Below, piece by piece: positions 6,285-22,111 of a DNA stretch of 59,163 nucleotides. The stretch's first letter is position 1; each line of letters starts with the position of its first letter. The notes beneath the pieces were generated by a model, which had not been told where the DNA came from, did no database searches, and saw only the letters and a list, made by a program, of their open reading frames with translations. Source of the DNA: Minisyncoccota bacterium (GTDB taxonomy: Bacteria; Patescibacteriota; Minisyncoccia; Phycocordibacterales; DATDWN01); assembly GCA_036517395.1 (NCBI GenBank), contig DATDWN010000001.1:1-59163 (forward strand), in the 5' to 3' direction. The position numbers and the translations under genes are program-made.

Positions 6285-6344
6285 TTGACACTCCTTTGTT
6301 TAGGAACTTTATCCCGTAGTGAACTTCGCTCTACTACTGGGAAT

Positions 6345-6393
6345 CTGTTTCGTTCTTTCGAACTCATCAGGCAAAGTACACACTTTGCTACAG
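6345..6393 (-). ncRNA. Hammerhead ribozyme motif, type III topology
   Basis: Minus strand: CTGT-A | GCAAAGT-GTGT-ACTTTGC | CTGATGA | GTTC-GAAA-GAAC | GAAA-CAG. Complete catalytic core, GUA cleavage triplet (bond between 6389 and 6388). Stem III is only 4 bp. Confidence 0.7.
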
Positions 6394-6629
6394 TAAGAGT
6401 TTTTGTACGGACTCTTAAACCGTAGATACATAATTCCCAGTGTTGCATCATTTCTGGGTAGGAAATGCAAAAATTTTATCTTGCATATTCCTTCAGTTTT
6501 TGCGGTCTCGCCCTGCCTTATTGTTGAACTGGTGGCTAGCCAATTCTGATTTCGTGCAGGATCCCCGCTCACACTTTGTTTAGTGGGTTTTATTGTCTAG
6601 GAGTTGTCCTTCTCCACCAAGAGTCAAGC

Positions 6630-15030: not shown

Positions 15031-15152
15031 CAAAATCTCTTTCTCACCATAACCTTTTTAGAGCACGCATAATTTCTGGGCTAGAAATTTGCTCACTCTC
15101 CCGCCGCCGCGGTCCGAGAGTCTCTAAAAAGGTTATGAATGAGACGAGATTT
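15031..15152. repeat. Long imperfect intergenic hairpin element with a GC-rich core
   Basis: Arms CAAAATCTCTTTCTCACCATAACCTTTTTAGAG / CTCTAAAAAGGTTATGAATGAGACGAGATTTTA. The first 18 nt recur exactly, inverted, at 38026..38043. Confidence 0.7.
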
Positions 15153-15314
15153 TATTTGGTGGTACAATTACACATGAACTAGAACTGATATTTTTGAAGA
15201 TTTTTGTTCTAGTTCGAAGCTCGCAAGTTTTGTTTGTGACCAAGCTGTATAGAAATACTGCGCATGGAGCAAACAAAACTGAGAGCGAAGAAATCGGACA
15301 AAAAGATCAAAAAT

Positions 15315-16927: not shown

Positions 16928-17209
16928 TTGTACAAAGTGTACAATATGGTTATGAATATAAAAACAATGTCGTCGACCAAAGCTAGGGCAAATATAAGCG
17001 AGATTATTGAACGGGTTAAGACCCGTGGGGAAGTTTTTGTTTTCGGCAGAAGAAACAACCCTGAGGCAGTACTAGTCAAGTTCCCAGATGTTTATAATTC
17101 AAGATTTTCAGATATTACAAATGTAAATGCTTATTCTGGTAGTTTTGATTTTCTAAAAAAAGAACCAGACCTATATAGTATAAAAGATTTAAAGAAAAAA
17201 TATGCATAG
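16928..17209 (+). CDS. Type II antitoxin, Phd/YefM family
   Basis: SSTKARANISEIIERVKTRGEVFVFGRRNNPEAVLV. Overlaps the toxin start by 8 nt. Confidence 0.75.
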   Translation: MYKVYNMVMNIKTMSSTKARANISEIIERVKTRGEVFVFGRRNNPEAVLVKFPDVYNSRFSDITNVNAYSGSFDFLKKEPDLYSIKDLKKKYA

Positions 17210-17537
17210 CGGTGTATTTAGTTTGGGGAAAATAATTCTGATACCTTTTCCGTTTACAGACTTGTCCGGAGTAAAAGTTCGTCCTGCCGTAATAATCTCA
17301 AATAAATCAATAGGAGATGATATCTTAGTAGCTTTTATTTCAACTAACACCAAGAAAAAAAGCCATTTTGAAATTGTAGTGAAAATGAACAATCAAAATG
17401 GGTTAAAATCCGACTCTACTGTTGTGGTTTCAAAGATTGCTACGCTAGAAAAGAAAACTGTTTTAGGTGAGATTGGAAAATTATCAAAAAGTGAAATCTT
17501 ACAAGTAAAGAAAAAACTCAAAGATTTGTTTTTCTGA
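17202..17537 (+). CDS. Type II toxin, MazF/PemK-like
   Basis: GKIILIPFPFTDLSGVKVRPAVIIS pattern. Confidence 0.75.
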   Translation: MHSGVFSLGKIILIPFPFTDLSGVKVRPAVIISNKSIGDDILVAFISTNTKKKSHFEIVVKMNNQNGLKSDSTVVVSKIATLEKKTVLGEIGKLSKSEILQVKKKLKDLFF

Positions 17538-17576
17538 AATAATTTTAGACCTTTAGTGTTATGATATAATACAGCC

Positions 17577-18338
17577 ATGATTGATAAATATCTAGAAGAT
17601 GCGGGGCTTTCGGATAAAGAAGTGGCCGTATATTTGCACCTAGTCCAGGTGGAACAGGCCTCTGTAGTCGAACTGGCTCAAAAAACCAAAATAAAAAGGC
17701 CGACTGTTTACACCATACTCGACTCACTTTCAAAAAAGGGTTTAGTTAGCGAAATAGAGTATGACAAAAAAACTAAATATCTAGCTGAACCACCAGAAAG
17801 GTTAAAAACATTTATTGAGAGAAAAGAAATGTCTCTAAACGAACTAAAGGATCGTTTCGTTAAAGATGTGATACCACAAATAAAAAGCCTACAGAGAGAG
17901 AGCGGAGAGAAACCAATAGTAAGATATTTCTCTGGCAAAGAGGGAATAGTTAGTTTGCAAAACAATATATACTCCGGATCCCCAGATGGTTCTCCAATTT
18001 ATATACTTTATCCAAAGGATCTTTTAGATGAATCATTCAAGGATGAAGAAACAGATAAGTACAAAAAAACAAGAACAGGTATAGGAATAAAAGCGAAAGT
18101 CCTCTATAACTGGACAAAGGGGGAGAAGCCATCAGACGAATTGGCTGAAAGAAAGAAGGTTGACGAAAAAAAATATCCATTCTTCGCCGATATAACAGTA
18201 TATAAAGACAAAGTCAGAATTAGTATTTTAGGTAAAAAATTATCTGGAATATATATTGAGAGTAAGGACTTTGCTGAAACGTTGAAAAGTCTTTTCAATC
18301 TAGCCTTTGATAATCTAAAAAATAATTCGGATAAATAA
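17577..18338 (+). CDS. TrmB-like transcriptional regulator
   Basis: LSDKEVAVYLHLVQVEQASVVELAQKTKIKRPTVYTILDSLSKKGLV winged HTH. Paralog of 7174..7959. Confidence 0.75.
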   Translation: MIDKYLEDAGLSDKEVAVYLHLVQVEQASVVELAQKTKIKRPTVYTILDSLSKKGLVSEIEYDKKTKYLAEPPERLKTFIERKEMSLNELKDRFVKDVIPQIKSLQRESGEKPIVRYFSGKEGIVSLQNNIYSGSPDGSPIYILYPKDLLDESFKDEETDKYKKTRTGIGIKAKVLYNWTKGEKPSDELAERKKVDEKKYPFFADITVYKDKVRISILGKKLSGIYIESKDFAETLKSLFNLAFDNLKNNSDK

Positions 18339-18344
18339 GTCGAG

Positions 18345-18626
18345 GCCCGACCGAGTGAGGAGAAGCGATTCCCCATCCCTCGGCCGAGCCCCTGTGTTGC
18401 GATTCACTTCCCACCCCTTCGGAAGGGAGTGAACCTACTAGTCGAGCATCTTGCTCTCTTTCTTCTGGCCCCCTCCTACGTGGGGCCAATGAGACGAAAC
18501 TACGACTCTATAGTGAACACATGACTTGTTTTGGTGGAACTTCTGTCCCGCCCCGATCTGCGCTCTCAAAGGCAGCAGTATTATCGGGGCGGTCAGGCCA
18601 CCTTAGTCATGCATGGACACCTCCTG
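18345..18626 (-). ncRNA. Unclassified GC-rich RNA convergent with the TrmB-like gene (tentative)
   Basis: Minus-strand promoter TTGACA (18660..18655), 16 nt, TATACT (18638..18633). Hairpins CCGCCCCGAT...ATCGGGGCGG and GGCCCC...GGGGCC. Only 3-5 codon ORFs follow the AGGAGG. No clear terminator. Confidence 0.35.
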
Positions 18627-18806
18627 CCGACCAGTATATACCCCTCGTTTTATTTGTCAAGTTTAAATATTAAATGTTTATAAAACTGTTTAAAGAAGTG
18701 TCAAATTTAGTATAAATCAGTCAGTCTCGATTATCAATCATAATGTATAAAATGGCTTTATTTAGAGCTATTTTTAGTGTAGTAAGAAAGAAAATGTCAG
18801 AAGTAC

Positions 18807-18835
18807 TTGACAGAAAATACGAATAGGTATATACT
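18807..18835 (+). promoter_or_regulatory. Sigma70-like promoter of the 18.8-21.0 kb hammerhead unit
   Basis: TTGACA (18807..18812), 17-nt spacer, TATACT (18830..18835). Confidence 0.6.
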
Positions 18836-19273
18836 ATCTCCAGAATCAAAACATTGAAAGTCAGGACGGTTTGACAGATGTCTCAGCTTTTGCTTCCACT
18901 TAGGCGCCTGGATCGCACAAATTAGTTGCGAGAGGCCCTAGGCGGGAGCAAAAGCTTCCAACAAGACTATGTCACAGGTACAAATCCTGATTGGCGCTGG
19001 GATTGCTGTCCACTCGTTTGTGGATGGCGCCCGAGTGTCGCGGCCGAAGCTTCGGGAAACCGAAGTGGACGCCCTCGCCCATGCCCTGTGGCTTGAAAAC
19101 CACGGTCAGCAGAAGCGAGCTCTGAAGTATCTGGAAGAATATCTCCAGAGAAACAGAGGCAATACTTGCCACTTAGGTGGCGGCCGGGGTGTTATCGCAG
19201 TCCTGGGAACAGAAAATGCGTACGCGGTTGGTTAACCGAGAAACAAAAATAACCCAGTTGGCTTGCCAACTGT

Positions 19274-19326
19274 ATCTGTCGTCCGATGTGTGTCGGGCTT
19301 GATGAGTTCAAAAGAACGAAACAGAT
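19274..19326 (+). ncRNA. Hammerhead ribozyme motif, type III, variant core
   Basis: ATCTGT-C | GTCCGA-TGTGTG-TCGGGC | TTGATGA | GTTC-AAAA-GAAC | GAAA-CAGAT. Same architecture as the other two copies, but position C3 reads U (or CUUGAUGA with an extra U). Confidence 0.55.
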
Positions 19327-20072
19327 GTTCCTTAAAATTTTGAAAAATAACTTCGTGGCCATGTTACTGAATCTCAACTTTTTAGATTCAGTAACATGGC
19401 CATGGAGAGCCAGATAGTCCAGCGATGGACGATTCGTCTCGGACAGCACGACCGAGGCGGGGTTGTATCGAAAGATATAATCCAAATCTCCACATATGTG
19501 GTTAAGAGGAGGGTCTACCAAACCCGAGGCCTCTCAGCCACATATGTTCGTAGCGTTTGGCGATGCTACGAAAGTTAGAAGACGAAACAGGCCCGAGGAA
19601 GTGACTGTCCGAAGGGTTTCTGATGAAAGTCAGAAGTGTGCCAACACCTGTTAGTTGGAAAGTCAGTGGCTAGGCTTAGGGACCGCAAGTCTCTTTGCTA
19701 AAGCCTCCCCCATTACTGACACAGTGCGGTCGCAAATTTGCAAAAATTTGCGAAGGCAAAGTTGGGGGGAAACCAAGAGCGTAGAGCCAGACCTCATCGT
19801 ACAGAGGGAGAGTGGATTAAGCCCCACTCATGCGTGAAACCCCGGCCAGGGTGAATCGCAATAAGCTCTTGGTGGATATGGTGGGCAACCGGCCGTCCCA
19901 AAAGGACACAGGTTGTGGTTAAAAGAGTAGAACCGATCGCAAATCGGTGGTTGGAGCTCGGGGTCACCTGGGCGCAATCTACTCTGGAGGCAAAATTGAC
20001 CTTGTTTGCTTCCACCTTGTTCTTTCTTCAGGCAATAAATAAATTTGTCTGAACGTCGCCAGAACGCATCTG

Positions 20073-20127
20073 GTACTGTCGTCTGATGTGTATCAGACCT
20101 GATGAGTTCGAAAGAACGAAACAGTAC
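20073..20127 (+). ncRNA. Hammerhead ribozyme motif, type III, canonical core
   Basis: GTACTGT-C | GTCTGAT-GTGT-ATCAGAC | CTGATGA | GTTC-GAAA-GAAC | GAAA-CAGTAC. 7-bp stem III, GUC triplet (cleavage after C20080), GNRA-capped stem II. Confidence 0.8.
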
Positions 20128-20220
20128 AAGGTTTGTGTTTATTAGGGATTTCCTTAAAAGTAAATTATTTTGATAGTTTTCTTTTAAGGGAAATTCTTCC
20201 CTAGTTCTTTGAGGACACAC

Positions 20221-20619
20221 ATGACCAAAGTGACGATGGTTCTTCTCTTGGCGGCGTCGGCTCTCTTCGGCGGCTGCGACAAGCTCCTCGTGGTGCCCGT
20301 CCGCGCCTACTGCGACCGAGAGGTTTCGTACACTCTCTGGAAGCAGGAGGGAAGGGCCTACCGGCTCCACCTCAACGTCGGCGCGGTGGACGAACGGGTG
20401 TGCATCGGAAATCTCGATGTCTCCCGCGAGATCAACTTGTCGCAAGATGTTTCCTCACCCGAGGAAGCGGACAAGCTCGTCGAGAAGTATCGGCGTCTTT
20501 ACGCCGAGAAACTCGCCGCTCGGCGTCCCACCATGAAGCTGGAGCTTCCCAAGCTCCCAGCCAAGAGGCCTGCGACACCCCAGTCGCAGAACCAGTGTCC
20601 AAAACCCGATCCGAAATGA
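20221..20619 (+). CDS. GC-rich putative lipoprotein
   Basis: SD GAGGA 6 nt upstream of ATG 20221. Signal peptide with lipobox MTKVTMVLLLAASALFGG-C. Lys/Pro-rich C-terminus. 93 nt downstream of the hammerhead. Confidence 0.65.
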   Translation: MTKVTMVLLLAASALFGGCDKLLVVPVRAYCDREVSYTLWKQEGRAYRLHLNVGAVDERVCIGNLDVSREINLSQDVSSPEEADKLVEKYRRLYAEKLAARRPTMKLELPKLPAKRPATPQSQNQCPKPDPK

Positions 20620-21015
20620 TCGGGTTCCCACCAGAGATTTTTTGAAAAAGAAATTTGTGGTGGGAAGGTGCGAACCTAGGAAAACCCAAGTAAGCGTCAT
20701 CGTAGAGCAACGACCTGTGCCCATGTGGCCGGATAGCCTACACACGCCGAAAGGTTAGTACTTTGTTGGAGCTCAAAGAGCAGATGCTCGCCTTCCCTTC
20801 AAATTCGTTGTCCAGGCCGGTGCAGCGGTCCGAGGACTCGAGAGGTGAAATTTGCCACCTTAGTAAGTGATGCCTCCCACTACTCCAAAAAAGTAGAAGG
20901 TGGATGGTCAGTAGAGATACTGACAATCGGGTTTAATGCGAGTGGCTTAAATCGTTTTCCAAGGAGGTGGCCACGCTCGCTAAAATAAAACCTGAACTGC
21001 ACATGTTCCTTCCCG

Positions 21016-21040
21016 AGCGCATCGACCCGATGCGCTTTTC
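21016..21040 (+). terminator. Intrinsic terminator closing the hammerhead unit
   Basis: AGCGCATC-GACCC-GATGCGCT followed by TTTT. Confidence 0.6.
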
Positions 21041-21052
21041 GTTACATAAAAA

Positions 21053-22111
21053 CTAAAATGGGTTTTTGGCGCTACGAATTTCGAAGTGTAAATGAACGCC
21101 TGTCGCTCCTTTTACAGAACCGCTGTTTCCCATTTTGCCTATGACTTGTCCCTGTCTGACGCTGTCACCTGCGGAGACCATTGTTGCACTCAAATGTCCA
21201 TATAAGGTTTGAGTACCATTGCTGTGTTTTATAACAATATAAGAACCATAACCTCCATTCCAGCCAGAGTTACGAGATATGATGACTTCACCAGAAGCTG
21301 AAGCTAAAATATTTGCCCCGTAATATGAAGCCAAGTCGACGCCATTGTGACCGTGGATGCCCTGAGTCTTTATTCCGCCGATAATTGGTCGCATGTAGTA
21401 ACCACTATAAATAGGGTACGAGGAGGATTTACTTCCTCCGCCAGAAACTACTCCAGAAACTACTCCGACTTCACCATCTGGGATAACCACAACATCCCCG
21501 ACAGCCAGTTTCGCACCAAGAGTTAAGTTGTTATATTGCAAGATTTCGTCCAAGTCGCCTTTGTAGATCTTGGCTATGCTTTGTAGTGTGTCGCCTGACT
21601 TGACCGTATGTTGGACACCGGAAATAGGCAGGATGACCAGAGTTTGGCCCACGGTTATGGTACTTCCTTTTATATCATTGCCCCAGCGTATAGTATTGAC
21701 CGAAACGCCAAACATTTTGGCGATGGCAGGTAGGGTGTCGCCTGAGTGAACAACATAGAGACTAATCTGATCTTGGTCTATGGTTTTGACATCACCTTGG
21801 ACTTGGGCGTCCGGCAAAAGAGAAGTTCCTCCAACTATAGTAGCGCTGTCTTTTGTACTCGAAGCACTCTGATCTGGAGAGATAGTCGCTTGAAGCAAAG
21901 CCATGTTTTGAGAGTTTGGTTGTATCTCTTCGGTCTCGGCGCTAACTGACGAAAAAAGGCTAGATATAAAAGAAAAAACGCTCGCATTAGCGTGAAGTGG
22001 CAATAAAAGCGTCGAGAGGAGAGTGAAAGCTAAAACCAAAGACGCCCATATGTTCACCGTATTTTCGCCTGATCCCGCGCTTCGAAAATATCCTAAACAT
22101 TTTCTCAGCAC
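21053..22111 (-). CDS. LysM-domain M23 family peptidoglycan endopeptidase
   Basis: Two LysM repeats (YVVHSGDTLPAIAKMFGVSVNTIRWGN; HTVKSGDTLQSIAKIY). M23 motifs HNGVDLA and GVHLHFEIR. Confidence 0.85.
   Translation of the reverse strand: MLRKCLGYFRSAGSGENTVNIWASLVLAFTLLSTLLLPLHANASVFSFISSLFSSVSAETEEIQPNSQNMALLQATISPDQSASSTKDSATIVGGTSLLPDAQVQGDVKTIDQDQISLYVVHSGDTLPAIAKMFGVSVNTIRWGNDIKGSTITVGQTLVILPISGVQHTVKSGDTLQSIAKIYKGDLDEILQYNNLTLGAKLAVGDVVVIPDGEVGVVSGVVSGGGSKSSSYPIYSGYYMRPIIGGIKTQGIHGHNGVDLASYYGANILASASGEVIISRNSGWNGGYGSYIVIKHSNGTQTLYGHLSATMVSAGDSVRQGQVIGKMGNSGSVKGATGVHLHFEIRSAKNPF

What the first reader, a model, noticed from the sequence alone, without database searches (positions are those of the whole stretch)
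19274..19326. Second hammerhead copy with a non-canonical core (UUGAUGA or CUUGAUGA)
- It has the same architecture and the same stem II as HH2: ATCTGT-C | GTCCGA-TGTGTG-TCGGGC | TTGATGA | GTTC-AAAA-GAAC | GAAA-CAGAT.
- Conserved C3 is either replaced by U, or C3 is followed by an extra U if the last stem I pair is opened.
- It may therefore be slower, conditionally active, or dead.
- That matters for whether the downstream 800-nt segment is really excised or merely 3'-processed.
Basis: partly seen in the sequence, partly recalled or inferred. Interest (0 to 1): 0.6.

Follow-up and report, generated by a model that had tools for sequence, protein, structure and literature searches.

The report
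Hammerhead ribozyme copy with mutated core
This is a real copy of a common self-cutting RNA motif that sits in front of a large unnamed structured RNA in a tiny-genome bacterium, but one essential core letter has mutated, so it probably cuts poorly or not at all.

Summary
The motif is at 19274-19326 (+) as described. It is a type III hammerhead: stem III open, cleavage expected after C19280, core UUGAUGA at 19299-19305. Position 3 is U where the consensus has C, and G8 is unchanged.

The change is a substitution, not an inserted U. Four unrelated metagenome hammerheads carry the same stem I hairpin followed by CUGAUGA at equal length.

U3 is private to this strain:
- All 4 orthologous 5' hammerheads in the genus have C3.
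- 17 of 18 hammerheads in the genus have C3.
- 67 of 69 distinct family copies have C3; the others are one U4C copy and this one.

Published mutagenesis of a type III hammerhead reports low activity for single mutants of the CUGA turn.

The two hammerheads are not a dedicated excision pair. The ~590-nt structured RNA between them occurs in relatives with both hammerheads, only the 5' one, only the 3' one, or none. RNA contigs of relatives span only 19403-19989. No RtcB ligase gene was found.

The family is the known kind of intercistronic hammerhead, present in 35 of 151 sampled genomes of the order. The unclassified RNA is the more interesting object.

The parts
18807..18835 (+). Promoter-like site (TTGACA-17-TATACT, 11 of 12). 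It is the only one on the + strand in 18300-20800 and would drive ORF88, HH1, the RNA, HH2 and the next ORF as one transcript.
   Evidence: This is a consensus match only.
18969..19235 (+). ORF of 88 aa with no Pfam family, lying upstream of HH1. Homologues lie next to the same RNA in 3 other genomes.
19255..19272 (+). 7-bp hairpin directly 5' of HH1. After cleavage it would cap the 3' end of the upstream mRNA (inference).
19274..19326 (+). HH1, a type III hammerhead. The predicted cleavage site is between C19280 and G19281.
19299..19299 (+). Core position 3 is U instead of C. It faces an unchanged G8 at 19304, giving a U-G wobble in place of the C3-G8 pair.
19297..19297 (+). Stem I position 2.2 is G, giving a U-G wobble. 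The four metagenome hammerheads with the same hairpin have A here. This is the second private change.
19351..19407 (+). 24-bp hairpin at the head of the RNA unit. Its sequence varies but its structure is kept in the relatives seen. It is also present in L039, which has no hammerhead in the 8 kb held.
19402..19992 (+). Conserved structured non-coding RNA of about 590 nt with no Rfam family.
20073..20127 (+). HH2, a canonical type III hammerhead with core CUGAUGA. Cleavage is predicted after C20080.
20221..20619 (+). ORF of 132 aa read from the ATG at 20221, with a signal-peptide-plus-Cys look (read by eye). It is preceded by a hairpin and a GAGGA ribosome site. This is the unit that HH2 heads.
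6341..6400 (-). Third hammerhead of the same family in the window. It has a canonical core and lies upstream of an ORF.

Best explanation
HH1 descends from a family of type III hammerheads that lie between cistrons in these small Patescibacteria/Saccharibacteria-like genomes.

**How the family is inferred to work.** The ribozyme folds as the polycistronic RNA is made and cuts itself after H17. The upstream mRNA is released with a 3' hairpin. The downstream unit starts with a 5'-OH at stem I.

**Role at this locus.** The 5' hammerhead separates the ORF88 message from a ~590-nt structured RNA. HH2 heads the next gene.

**What differs in this strain.** The copy has picked up two transitions side by side: A to G at stem I position 2.2, and C to U at core position 3. 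The C3-G8 Watson-Crick pair of the active site becomes a U-G wobble. The copy is therefore predicted to cleave much more slowly than its relatives, or not at all.

**Consequence.** The RNA is probably still made. Its conserved body starts about 120 nt downstream of the hammerhead site, behind a 24-bp hairpin that another nuclease could cut. RNase III is encoded in the genome.

**Shown versus inferred.** Shown: the architecture, the homology, the uniqueness of U3, and the modular presence or absence of the hammerheads. Inferred: the loss of activity, co-transcription from the 18807 promoter, and the alternative maturation route.
For: **Architecture and homology**
- The architecture and fold are those of a type III hammerhead.
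- The family structure is strongly supported by covariation. Across 69 distinct copies, 98.8% of cells are paired, 275 cells changed on both sides, and the covariation score is 0.776 against 0.219 in shuffles, reached by 0 of 500 shuffles. That alignment was fitted to the model, so the counts lean towards the structure.

**U3 is private to this strain**
- C3 is present in 4 of 4 orthologous 5' hammerheads.
- C3 is present in 17 of 18 hammerheads found in 8 of 41 genomes of the genus.
- C3 is present in 67 of 69 distinct copies from 44 sources.
- In viral contigs, the family pattern with C3 matched 11 times, with U3-G8 0 times, and with U3-A8 0 times.

**Substitution, not insertion**
- Four unrelated metagenome contigs carry the same stem I hairpin followed by CUGAUGA at equal length.

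**Literature**
- C3 pairs with G8, and nature shows U3-A8 covariation (PMC3088659, section 8 read).
- All single mutants of the CUGA turn of a type III hammerhead had low co-transcriptional activity (PMC9901934, passages).
- A natural halophile variant written with U3 and G8 (PMC7151607, passage) belongs to the saltern variants described in PMC3088659. HHmeta, the one measured there, needs about 300 mM Mg for 0.13 per min (passages). I could not tell from what I read which of the variants is HHmeta.

**Context**
- One promoter-like site lies upstream of ORF88, and none lies between ORF88 and the RNA.
- G089 has no 5' hammerhead but has a 12 of 12 promoter-like site about 220 nt before its RNA.
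- An RNase III gene is present.
- Clustered hammerheads that flank single genes are a published arrangement (PMC3088659, passages).
Against: - No cleavage data exist for this sequence. Natural core variants can keep useful activity when tertiary contacts are strong (PMC3088659 discussion), and HH1 keeps the family's loop 1 and loop 2.
- All three stems are intact, so any decay is very recent. Alternatively, the copy may still be under selection.
- The only other record with the T, L045, is 100% identical to the window over 1084 nt. It may come from the same population or sample, so the T has no independent confirmation.
- The 5' end at 19403 rests on contig ends in two RNA studies. This is a weak hint that strain branching in the assembly graph could also produce.
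- Co-transcription of ORF88 and the RNA is inferred from a consensus scan only.
Confidence: 0.6

Rival explanations
1. HH1 is still a working ribozyme. It would be slower or dependent on conditions such as high Mg or Mn, with the U3-G8 wobble tolerated thanks to the loop-loop contact. It would still set the 5' end of the RNA precursor over the long lifetime of a stable RNA in a slow-growing cell.
For: - Stems I, II and III and both family-typical loops are intact.
- Natural core variants with low but real activity are documented: A6C favouring Mn (PMC7151607, abstract and passages), and the saltern variants and a viroid U4C (PMC3088659, passages).
- One other core variant, U4C, is present in the family in G086.
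Against: - U3 occurs once in 69 distinct copies, and no orthologue has it.
- There is no compensating A8.
- Single mutants of the CUGA turn had low activity in a type III hammerhead (PMC9901934).
Confidence: 0.27
2. The two hammerheads are a matched pair that excises an 800-nt unit (19281-20080) with 5'-OH and cyclic-phosphate ends. The unit would then be ligated into a circular RNA, as in retrozymes or viroid-like elements.
For: - Two same-strand type III hammerheads lie 800 nt apart around a non-coding RNA.
- Type III is the type found in virusoids. The same design is present in two viral-collection records of 366 and 377 nt.
Against: - The RNA occurs with only one hammerhead or none in 4 of 7 loci.
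- The only repeat between the two ends is the hammerhead itself.
- No RtcB gene is found in a genome scored 100% complete.
- Conservation and RNA contigs cover 19402-19992, not the whole 800 nt.
- The same hammerheads head ordinary small ORFs elsewhere.
Confidence: 0.05
3. The T at 19299 is an assembly or sequencing error or a minor allele, and the population's hammerhead is canonical.
For: - It is a single-base difference from the consensus.
- The read-laying output did not show the contigs that cover 19214-19384.
Against: - A separately catalogued metagenome contig, L045, has the same T together with the neighbouring A-to-G change, although it may be the same population.
- Two adjacent transitions are less likely to be an error.
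Confidence: 0.06

Closest known systems
Type III hammerhead ribozyme (Rfam RF00008), virusoid and phage design
   Same: - Stem III is open, and stems I and II are capped.
- Stem I has 6 bp with loop UGUGUR; stem II has 4 bp with loop RAAA.
- GAAA, the A15.1-U16.1 pair and C17 are present.
- The same design with a canonical core matches 11 viral-collection contigs.
   Different: - Position 3 is U with G8 kept.
- Stem I has a U-G wobble at 1.2-2.2.
- The score is below Rfam's gathering threshold.
Clustered hammerheads that flank single genes in prophage-type regions (Perreault et al. 2011, PMC3088659)
   Same: - Several same-strand hammerheads lie 250-1100 nt apart and delimit single small genes.
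- The proposed role is cutting long transcripts into gene-length RNAs (passages).
   Different: - Here the host is a small Patescibacteria-type genome and the type is III.
- One delimited unit is a ~590-nt structured RNA rather than a gene.
- Prophage context was not examined.
Natural hammerhead core variants: U3-A8 covariants, saltern variants written with U3 and G8, Bcep176 A6C
   Same: It is a rare natural departure from the core consensus at the C3-G8 pair.
   Different: - The U3-A8 variants keep a Watson-Crick pair (PMC3088659 section 8; PMC4209133 passage). HH1 does not.
- The saltern variant has two inserted nucleotides and comes from a very high-salt setting. HH1 has no insertion, and its DNA turns up in groundwater and soil runs.
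Retrozymes and viroid-like circular RNAs with hammerheads
   Same: Type III hammerheads lie on both sides of a non-coding unit a few hundred nucleotides long.
   Different: - There are no long terminal repeats.
- The hammerheads are dispensable across copies.
- No RtcB gene is present.
- The unit sits in a bacterial chromosome between ordinary genes.

Membership tests
Hammerhead ribozyme type III (RF00008) | Three-helix junction with stem III open and stems I and II closed by loops | tested here: met
   The Rfam alignment and the minimum-free-energy folds show it.
Hammerhead ribozyme type III (RF00008) | Core C3-U4-G5-A6-N7-G8-A9 | tested here: not met
   The sequence reads U-U-G-A-U-G-A. Position 3 (19299) is U.
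Hammerhead ribozyme type III (RF00008) | C3-G8 Watson-Crick pair, or a covarying replacement such as U3-A8 | tested here: not met
   U3 faces G8, a wobble at best. The published covariant is U3-A8.
Hammerhead ribozyme type III (RF00008) | G12-A13-A14, the A15.1-U16.1 pair, and H17 at the cleavage site | tested here: met
   GAA lies at 19318-19320, A19321 pairs with U19279, and C19280 is H17.
Hammerhead ribozyme type III (RF00008) | Score at or above Rfam's gathering threshold (48.5 bits) | tested here: not met
   HH1 scores 24.9 bits and 34.7 bits. Canonical HH2 also falls short at 44.9 bits, so the threshold does not discriminate within this family.
Hammerhead ribozyme type III (RF00008) | Common descent with canonical hammerheads: same position in orthologous loci and same stem and loop design | tested here: met
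   4 of 4 orthologous loci have a canonical hammerhead there. Four metagenome copies have the identical stem I hairpin.
Hammerhead ribozyme type III (RF00008) | Self-cleavage after H17 | not testable with these tools
   Only assembled contigs were available, not raw reads, and no bench assay was possible.
Clustered intercistronic hammerheads (Perreault 2011 kind) | Several same-strand hammerheads flanking single genes or short gene blocks | tested here: met
   The window has HH1 and HH2. Arrays of 2-5 copies are seen in G018, G020, G041, G121, G147, G161, G065 and others. Small ORFs start about 30 nt after many copies.
Clustered intercistronic hammerheads (Perreault 2011 kind) | Prophage or integrase neighbourhood | not tested
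   Only the flanking ORFs of the window were scanned. They include a MazF-like toxin, a TrmB-type regulator and an M23 peptidase, and no integrase was seen among the nine. The region is a mild GC island.
Retrozyme or viroid-like circular RNA | Both hammerheads belong to the unit and are kept wherever the unit occurs | tested here: not met
   Both hammerheads are present in 3 of 7 loci, the 5' one only in 2, the 3' one only in 1, and none within 8 kb in 1.
Retrozyme or viroid-like circular RNA | An RNA ligase for 5'-OH and cyclic-phosphate ends (RtcB) is available | tested here: not met
   PF01139 has no match in the genome, while 10 of 14 control genomes ring.
Retrozyme or viroid-like circular RNA | Circular junction joining 20080 to 19281 in RNA | tested here: inconclusive
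   No such joint is listed. However, only contigs of relatives were laid, and they do not cover the hammerheads.

The most novel reading that the evidence does not exclude
The U3-G8 hammerhead is not decay but a tuned, slow or ion-dependent switch. It would set how fast a new class of large (~590-nt) structured RNA is released from the mRNA of a small protein (the ORF88 family) that travels with that RNA across family boundaries. This would make it a ribozyme-gated RNA-protein module in ultrasmall episymbiotic bacteria.
Probability: 0.1. Interest if true: 0.65.

Novelty: new member of a known kind. Interest (0 to 1): 0.35.

Why it matters
**For the finding itself.** It gives a clean natural example of a single C3-to-U change in an otherwise intact, tertiary-stabilised type III hammerhead, with canonical orthologues on hand as controls. 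That makes a simple, well-controlled test of how much a U-G wobble at the C3-G8 pair costs in a natural scaffold.

**For annotation.** This hammerhead family is common in the order (35 of 151 sampled genomes), yet every copy in this window scores below Rfam's gathering threshold. Standard pipelines therefore miss it.

**The larger point is the neighbour.** An unclassified, covariation-supported RNA of about 590 nt is present in RNA libraries from sediment and ice. It is sporadic in Patescibacteria-type genomes and is linked to a small protein of unknown function.

Tried and rejected
**Scans and searches that found nothing relevant**
- Rfam at gathering threshold over the whole window found only a tRNA.
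- The permissive Rfam scan of 17500-22000 gave no family for the 590-nt RNA. The same scan over four orthologous loci also gave none.
- ROOL (RF03087) gave no match in the genome, but it rang in no control genome either, so that search is uninformative.
- RNase P RNA lies elsewhere in the genome, at C3:7405-7785. The RNA is therefore not RNase P.
- The RNA pattern gave 0 matches in viral contigs.

**Readings considered and dropped**
- I considered reading the RNA as coding (ORF 19396-19578, 60 aa). I rejected this because relatives differ by single-base gaps and by paired compensatory changes.
- I noticed an apparent internal CGAAAC...CUGAUGA near 19580-19625. I dismissed it by eye: there is no credible stem I and no Rfam hit.
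- I thought GTTCTTT might be a genome-wide signal. It is not enriched: 152 observed against 161 expected.
- The joint 19230 to 20085 in DNA runs X1 and X2 looked like a deletion of the whole unit. It is better read as a relative's ORF88 tail followed by its own hammerhead, because other letters lie between the two sides.

**Limits of the read-laying**
- The RNA runs gave no contig over HH1, HH2 or the ORFs. This is absence of cover only and says nothing about cleavage.
- The contigs that cover 19214-19384 in the DNA runs were not among the rows shown. The base at 19299 could therefore not be checked in them.

**Weak leads**
- The protein atlas on ORF88 gave only sub-threshold TPR-like leads, with scores of 0.81 or less.

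**Literature searches**
- 'hammerhead' with 'candidate phyla radiation' returned 3 papers, none about ribozymes in these bacteria (listing only).
- 'hammerhead' with Saccharibacteria, Patescibacteria or TM7 returned 15 top rows that all had 0 hammerhead occurrences.
- Large-RNA terms with these taxa returned nothing relevant.
- I therefore found no print record of this hammerhead family or of the RNA in these searches. Subscription papers are not covered.
- The Nelson and Uhlenbeck 2008 paper was not held. Quantitative C3U rates are therefore not cited.
- Supplements are closed. Figures S6 and S7 of PMC3088659, which list tested and inactive core variants, may bear on U3 and could not be seen.

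**Recalled, not from any call**
- That the 366-nt and 377-nt viral records are plant virusoids.
- That RtcB is the ligase for such ends.

Full report
**What is there**

In standard hammerhead numbering the parts are:
- stem III 5' strand AUCUGU, 19274-19279
- H17 = C19280
- stem I GUCCGA / UCGGGC with loop UGUGUG, 19281-19298
- core U3-U4-G5-A6-U7-G8-A9, 19299-19305
- stem II GUUC / GAAC with loop AAAA, 19306-19317
- G12-A13-A14, 19318-19320
- stem III 3' strand ACAGAU, 19321-19326

Stems I and II are capped and stem III is open, so this is a type III hammerhead.

Rfam's Hammerhead_3 model aligns it end to end at 24.9 bits (E 0.046 for 4.5 kb) and 34.7 bits (E 2.9e-6, whole genome). The canonical neighbour HH2 (20073-20127) scores 44.9 bits. 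All are under the gathering score of 48.5, which explains the empty gathering scan.

The three-way junction is the minimum-free-energy fold of the motif alone and within 175 nt of context. In context it sits between a 7-bp hairpin (19255-19272) and a 24-bp hairpin (19351-19407).

**The organism**

The window belongs to a 680,891-base assembly scored 100% complete. Named records that hold the same RNA are Patescibacteria, Candidatus Saccharibacteria or Paceibacterota metagenome-assembled genomes.

**Is U3 conserved, and does it co-vary with G8?**

No to both. The region between the two hammerheads is found in four other genomes of the genus at 75-84% identity. All four have a hammerhead at the position of HH1, and all four read CUGAUGA.

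I built a covariance model from 12 family copies (HH1 was one of the 12). It found:
- 18 hammerheads in 8 of 41 genomes of the genus. Reading all 18 gives 17 with C3 and HH1 with U3.
- Matches in 35 of 151 genomes in an even sample of the order.

Re-searching 44 held sources gave 70 matches, 69 of them distinct. Their cores were:

| Core | Copies |
|---|---|
| CUGAUGA | 63 |
| CUGACGA | 2 |
| CUGAAGA | 1 |
| CUGAUGA in a 5'-truncated hit | 1 |
| CCGAUGA (U4C, in G086) | 1 |
| UUGAUGA (HH1) | 1 |

Position 8 is G in HH1, so there is no U3-A8 compensation. In the viral collection the family motif matched 11 contigs with C3, none with U3-G8 and none with U3-A8.

The family's helices covary strongly: 98.8% of cells are paired and 275 cells changed on both sides. 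The covariation score of 0.776 was reached by 0 of 500 shuffles (shuffle mean 0.219). That alignment was fitted to the model.

**Substitution or insertion?**

A metagenome scan for HH1's stem I hairpin, leaving positions 2.2 and 3 open, returned five contigs. One, L045, is 100% identical to the window over 1084 nt, so it may be the same population. The other four share nothing with the window but the hammerhead, and they read GUCCGA-UGUGUG-UCGGAC-CUGAUGA.

HH1 differs from that form by two transitions two bases apart, A to G at 19297 and C to U at 19299, with no change in length. The 'UUGAUGA' reading is therefore right, and the 'C plus an extra U' reading is not supported.

**What U3 should do**

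- C3 pairs with G8 in the active fold, and natural copies covary to U3-A8 (PMC3088659, section 8 read; PMC4209133, passage).
- Comprehensive mutagenesis of a type III hammerhead found that only the C-to-G plus G-to-C swap at this pair rescued activity. [quoted passage not shown]
- A natural halophile variant written with U3 and G8 plus two inserted bases is named in PMC7151607 (passage).
- HHmeta, the saltern variant measured in PMC3088659, needs about 300 mM Mg to reach about 0.13 per min (passages). I could not tell from what I read which of the saltern variants HHmeta is.
- That paper also notes that some weak variants still work in vivo.

I could not read a paper that gives a rate for C3U alone. 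My reading is that HH1 is strongly impaired. Residual slow cleavage cannot be excluded.

**What the hammerheads are for**

Across the order the copies are often clustered on one strand, 250-1100 nt apart. The units between them mostly hold one small ORF, which in many cases starts about 30 nt after the hammerhead. This is the published arrangement of clustered hammerheads that flank single genes, thought to cut long transcripts into gene-length RNAs (PMC3088659, passages).

In the window, the only promoter-like site on the + strand between 18300 and 20800 lies at 18807-18835, ahead of ORF88. HH1 would then separate the ORF88 message from what follows, and HH2 heads the next ORF (ATG at 20221).

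**The 800-nt segment**

It holds a conserved RNA of about 590 nt (19402-19992).
- Five sequences give 178 predicted pairs, 47 of them with compensatory double changes.
- No Rfam family matches. RNase P RNA is elsewhere in the genome.
- A domain model finds it in 5 of 41 genomes of the genus, and in 1 of 150 other genomes sampled in the order, G089. A further copy is in a named Saccharibacteria record, L039.

The hammerheads come and go around it:
- both present: G000, G020, G007
- 5' only: G012, G022
- 3' only: G089, which instead has a 12 of 12 promoter-like site about 220 nt upstream
- none within the 8 kb held: L039

The 24-bp hairpin at the head of the RNA is kept, with changed sequence, even where there is no hammerhead.

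In two metatranscriptomes from different studies, contigs of relatives (roughly 85-93% identical) cover only 19403-19989. Four of them begin exactly at 19403, while DNA contigs run across that point. This is a weak hint of a mature 5' end inside the base of the hairpin, and strain branching in the assembly could also cause it.

RNase III is encoded and RtcB is not found. The two hammerheads are therefore not a dedicated excision or circularisation pair. Whether HH1 cuts probably matters little for making the RNA body. It mostly decides whether the RNA stays tethered to the ORF88 message.

**Verdict**

HH1 is a hammerhead by descent and architecture but fails the core consensus at a defining position. 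I therefore file it as a mutated member of a known kind, not as a proven ribozyme. As a finding it is modestly interesting. The neighbouring unclassified RNA and the breadth of this hammerhead family in ultrasmall bacteria deserve their own follow-up.

Noticed in passing
window 19402-19992 (+): A conserved structured RNA of about 590 nt with no Rfam family. It has 178 predicted pairs, 47 of them with compensatory changes. It is found in 5 of 41 genomes of the genus and in 1 of 150 others sampled in the order. Contigs of relatives are present in RNA libraries from freshwater sediment and ice.
   Followed up: partly
window 18969-19235 (+); L009 1162-1425 (-); L008 3169-3363 (+); L041 2231-2374 (+): The 88-aa ORF upstream of HH1 has homologues next to the same RNA in three other genomes. 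It lies upstream in G022 (69% identical) and downstream in G012 (47%) and G089 (38%, a different family). It has no Pfam family and only sub-threshold TPR-like leads. It may be a partner of the RNA.
   Followed up: partly
G041:C2, G121:C54, G147:C12, G161:C15 and C22, G065:C68, G018:C1 (loci L054, L048, L058, L053, L067, L026, L031): Arrays of 2-5 same-strand type III hammerheads lie 250-1100 nt apart. Most of the units between them hold one small ORF, often starting about 30 nt after the hammerhead. The family is present in 35 of 151 sampled genomes of the order.
   Followed up: partly
window 19328-19338, 20204-20213; many loci just 3' of the hammerhead: A GUUCUUU(G/A)AA-like motif recurs a few bases after many hammerheads, and also near the 3' end of the RNA (read by eye). 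The 7-mer is not enriched genome-wide: 152 observed against 161 expected.
   Followed up: partly
L048 308-367, 1058-1117, 1828-1868 (-); L032 1808-1867 (+); L065 1501-1560 (-): Other core-adjacent variants occur in the family. Four copies read CUGAUGA-AGGC/AGCC...GCCA/GGCA-GAAAC, an A-A mismatch at 10.1-11.1. One copy, in G086, reads CCGAUGA (U4C).
   Followed up: no
window 6341-6400 (-): A third hammerhead of the same family, with a canonical core and A at position 17, lies upstream of a hairpin and an ORF.
   Followed up: partly
window 19000-21000: A mild GC island: 50-52% against 40.8% for the genome. It covers ORF88, both hammerheads, the RNA and the next ORF. Together with the sporadic distribution, this suggests an accessory and possibly mobile cassette.
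   Followed up: no
L078 (366 nt) and L079 (377 nt), viral collection: Two very short viral-collection records carry a hammerhead of the same design: loop UGUGUA and stem II GUCC-RAAA-GGAC. By recall only, their lengths fit plant virusoid RNAs. The other nine matches are phage-sized contigs, several with a ribosome site and ATG soon after the hammerhead.
   Followed up: no
L048, L058, L067 inter-hammerhead units: A recurring small protein of about 100 aa appears in three different arrays. It has a C-x-x-C-x-x-C stretch and a similar C-terminal half (read by eye).
   Followed up: no
window 17202-17537 (+) and 16928-17209 (+): A PemK/MazF-like toxin ORF (Pfam E 1.6e-16) has a small ORF just upstream, followed by a TrmB-type regulator at 17577-18338.
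   Followed up: no
window 15069-15155 (+): A weak Hammerhead_3 match (16.7 bits, E 0.34) lies upstream of the ComM/Mg-chelatase-like gene. It was not found by the family model at E up to 0.01.
   Followed up: no
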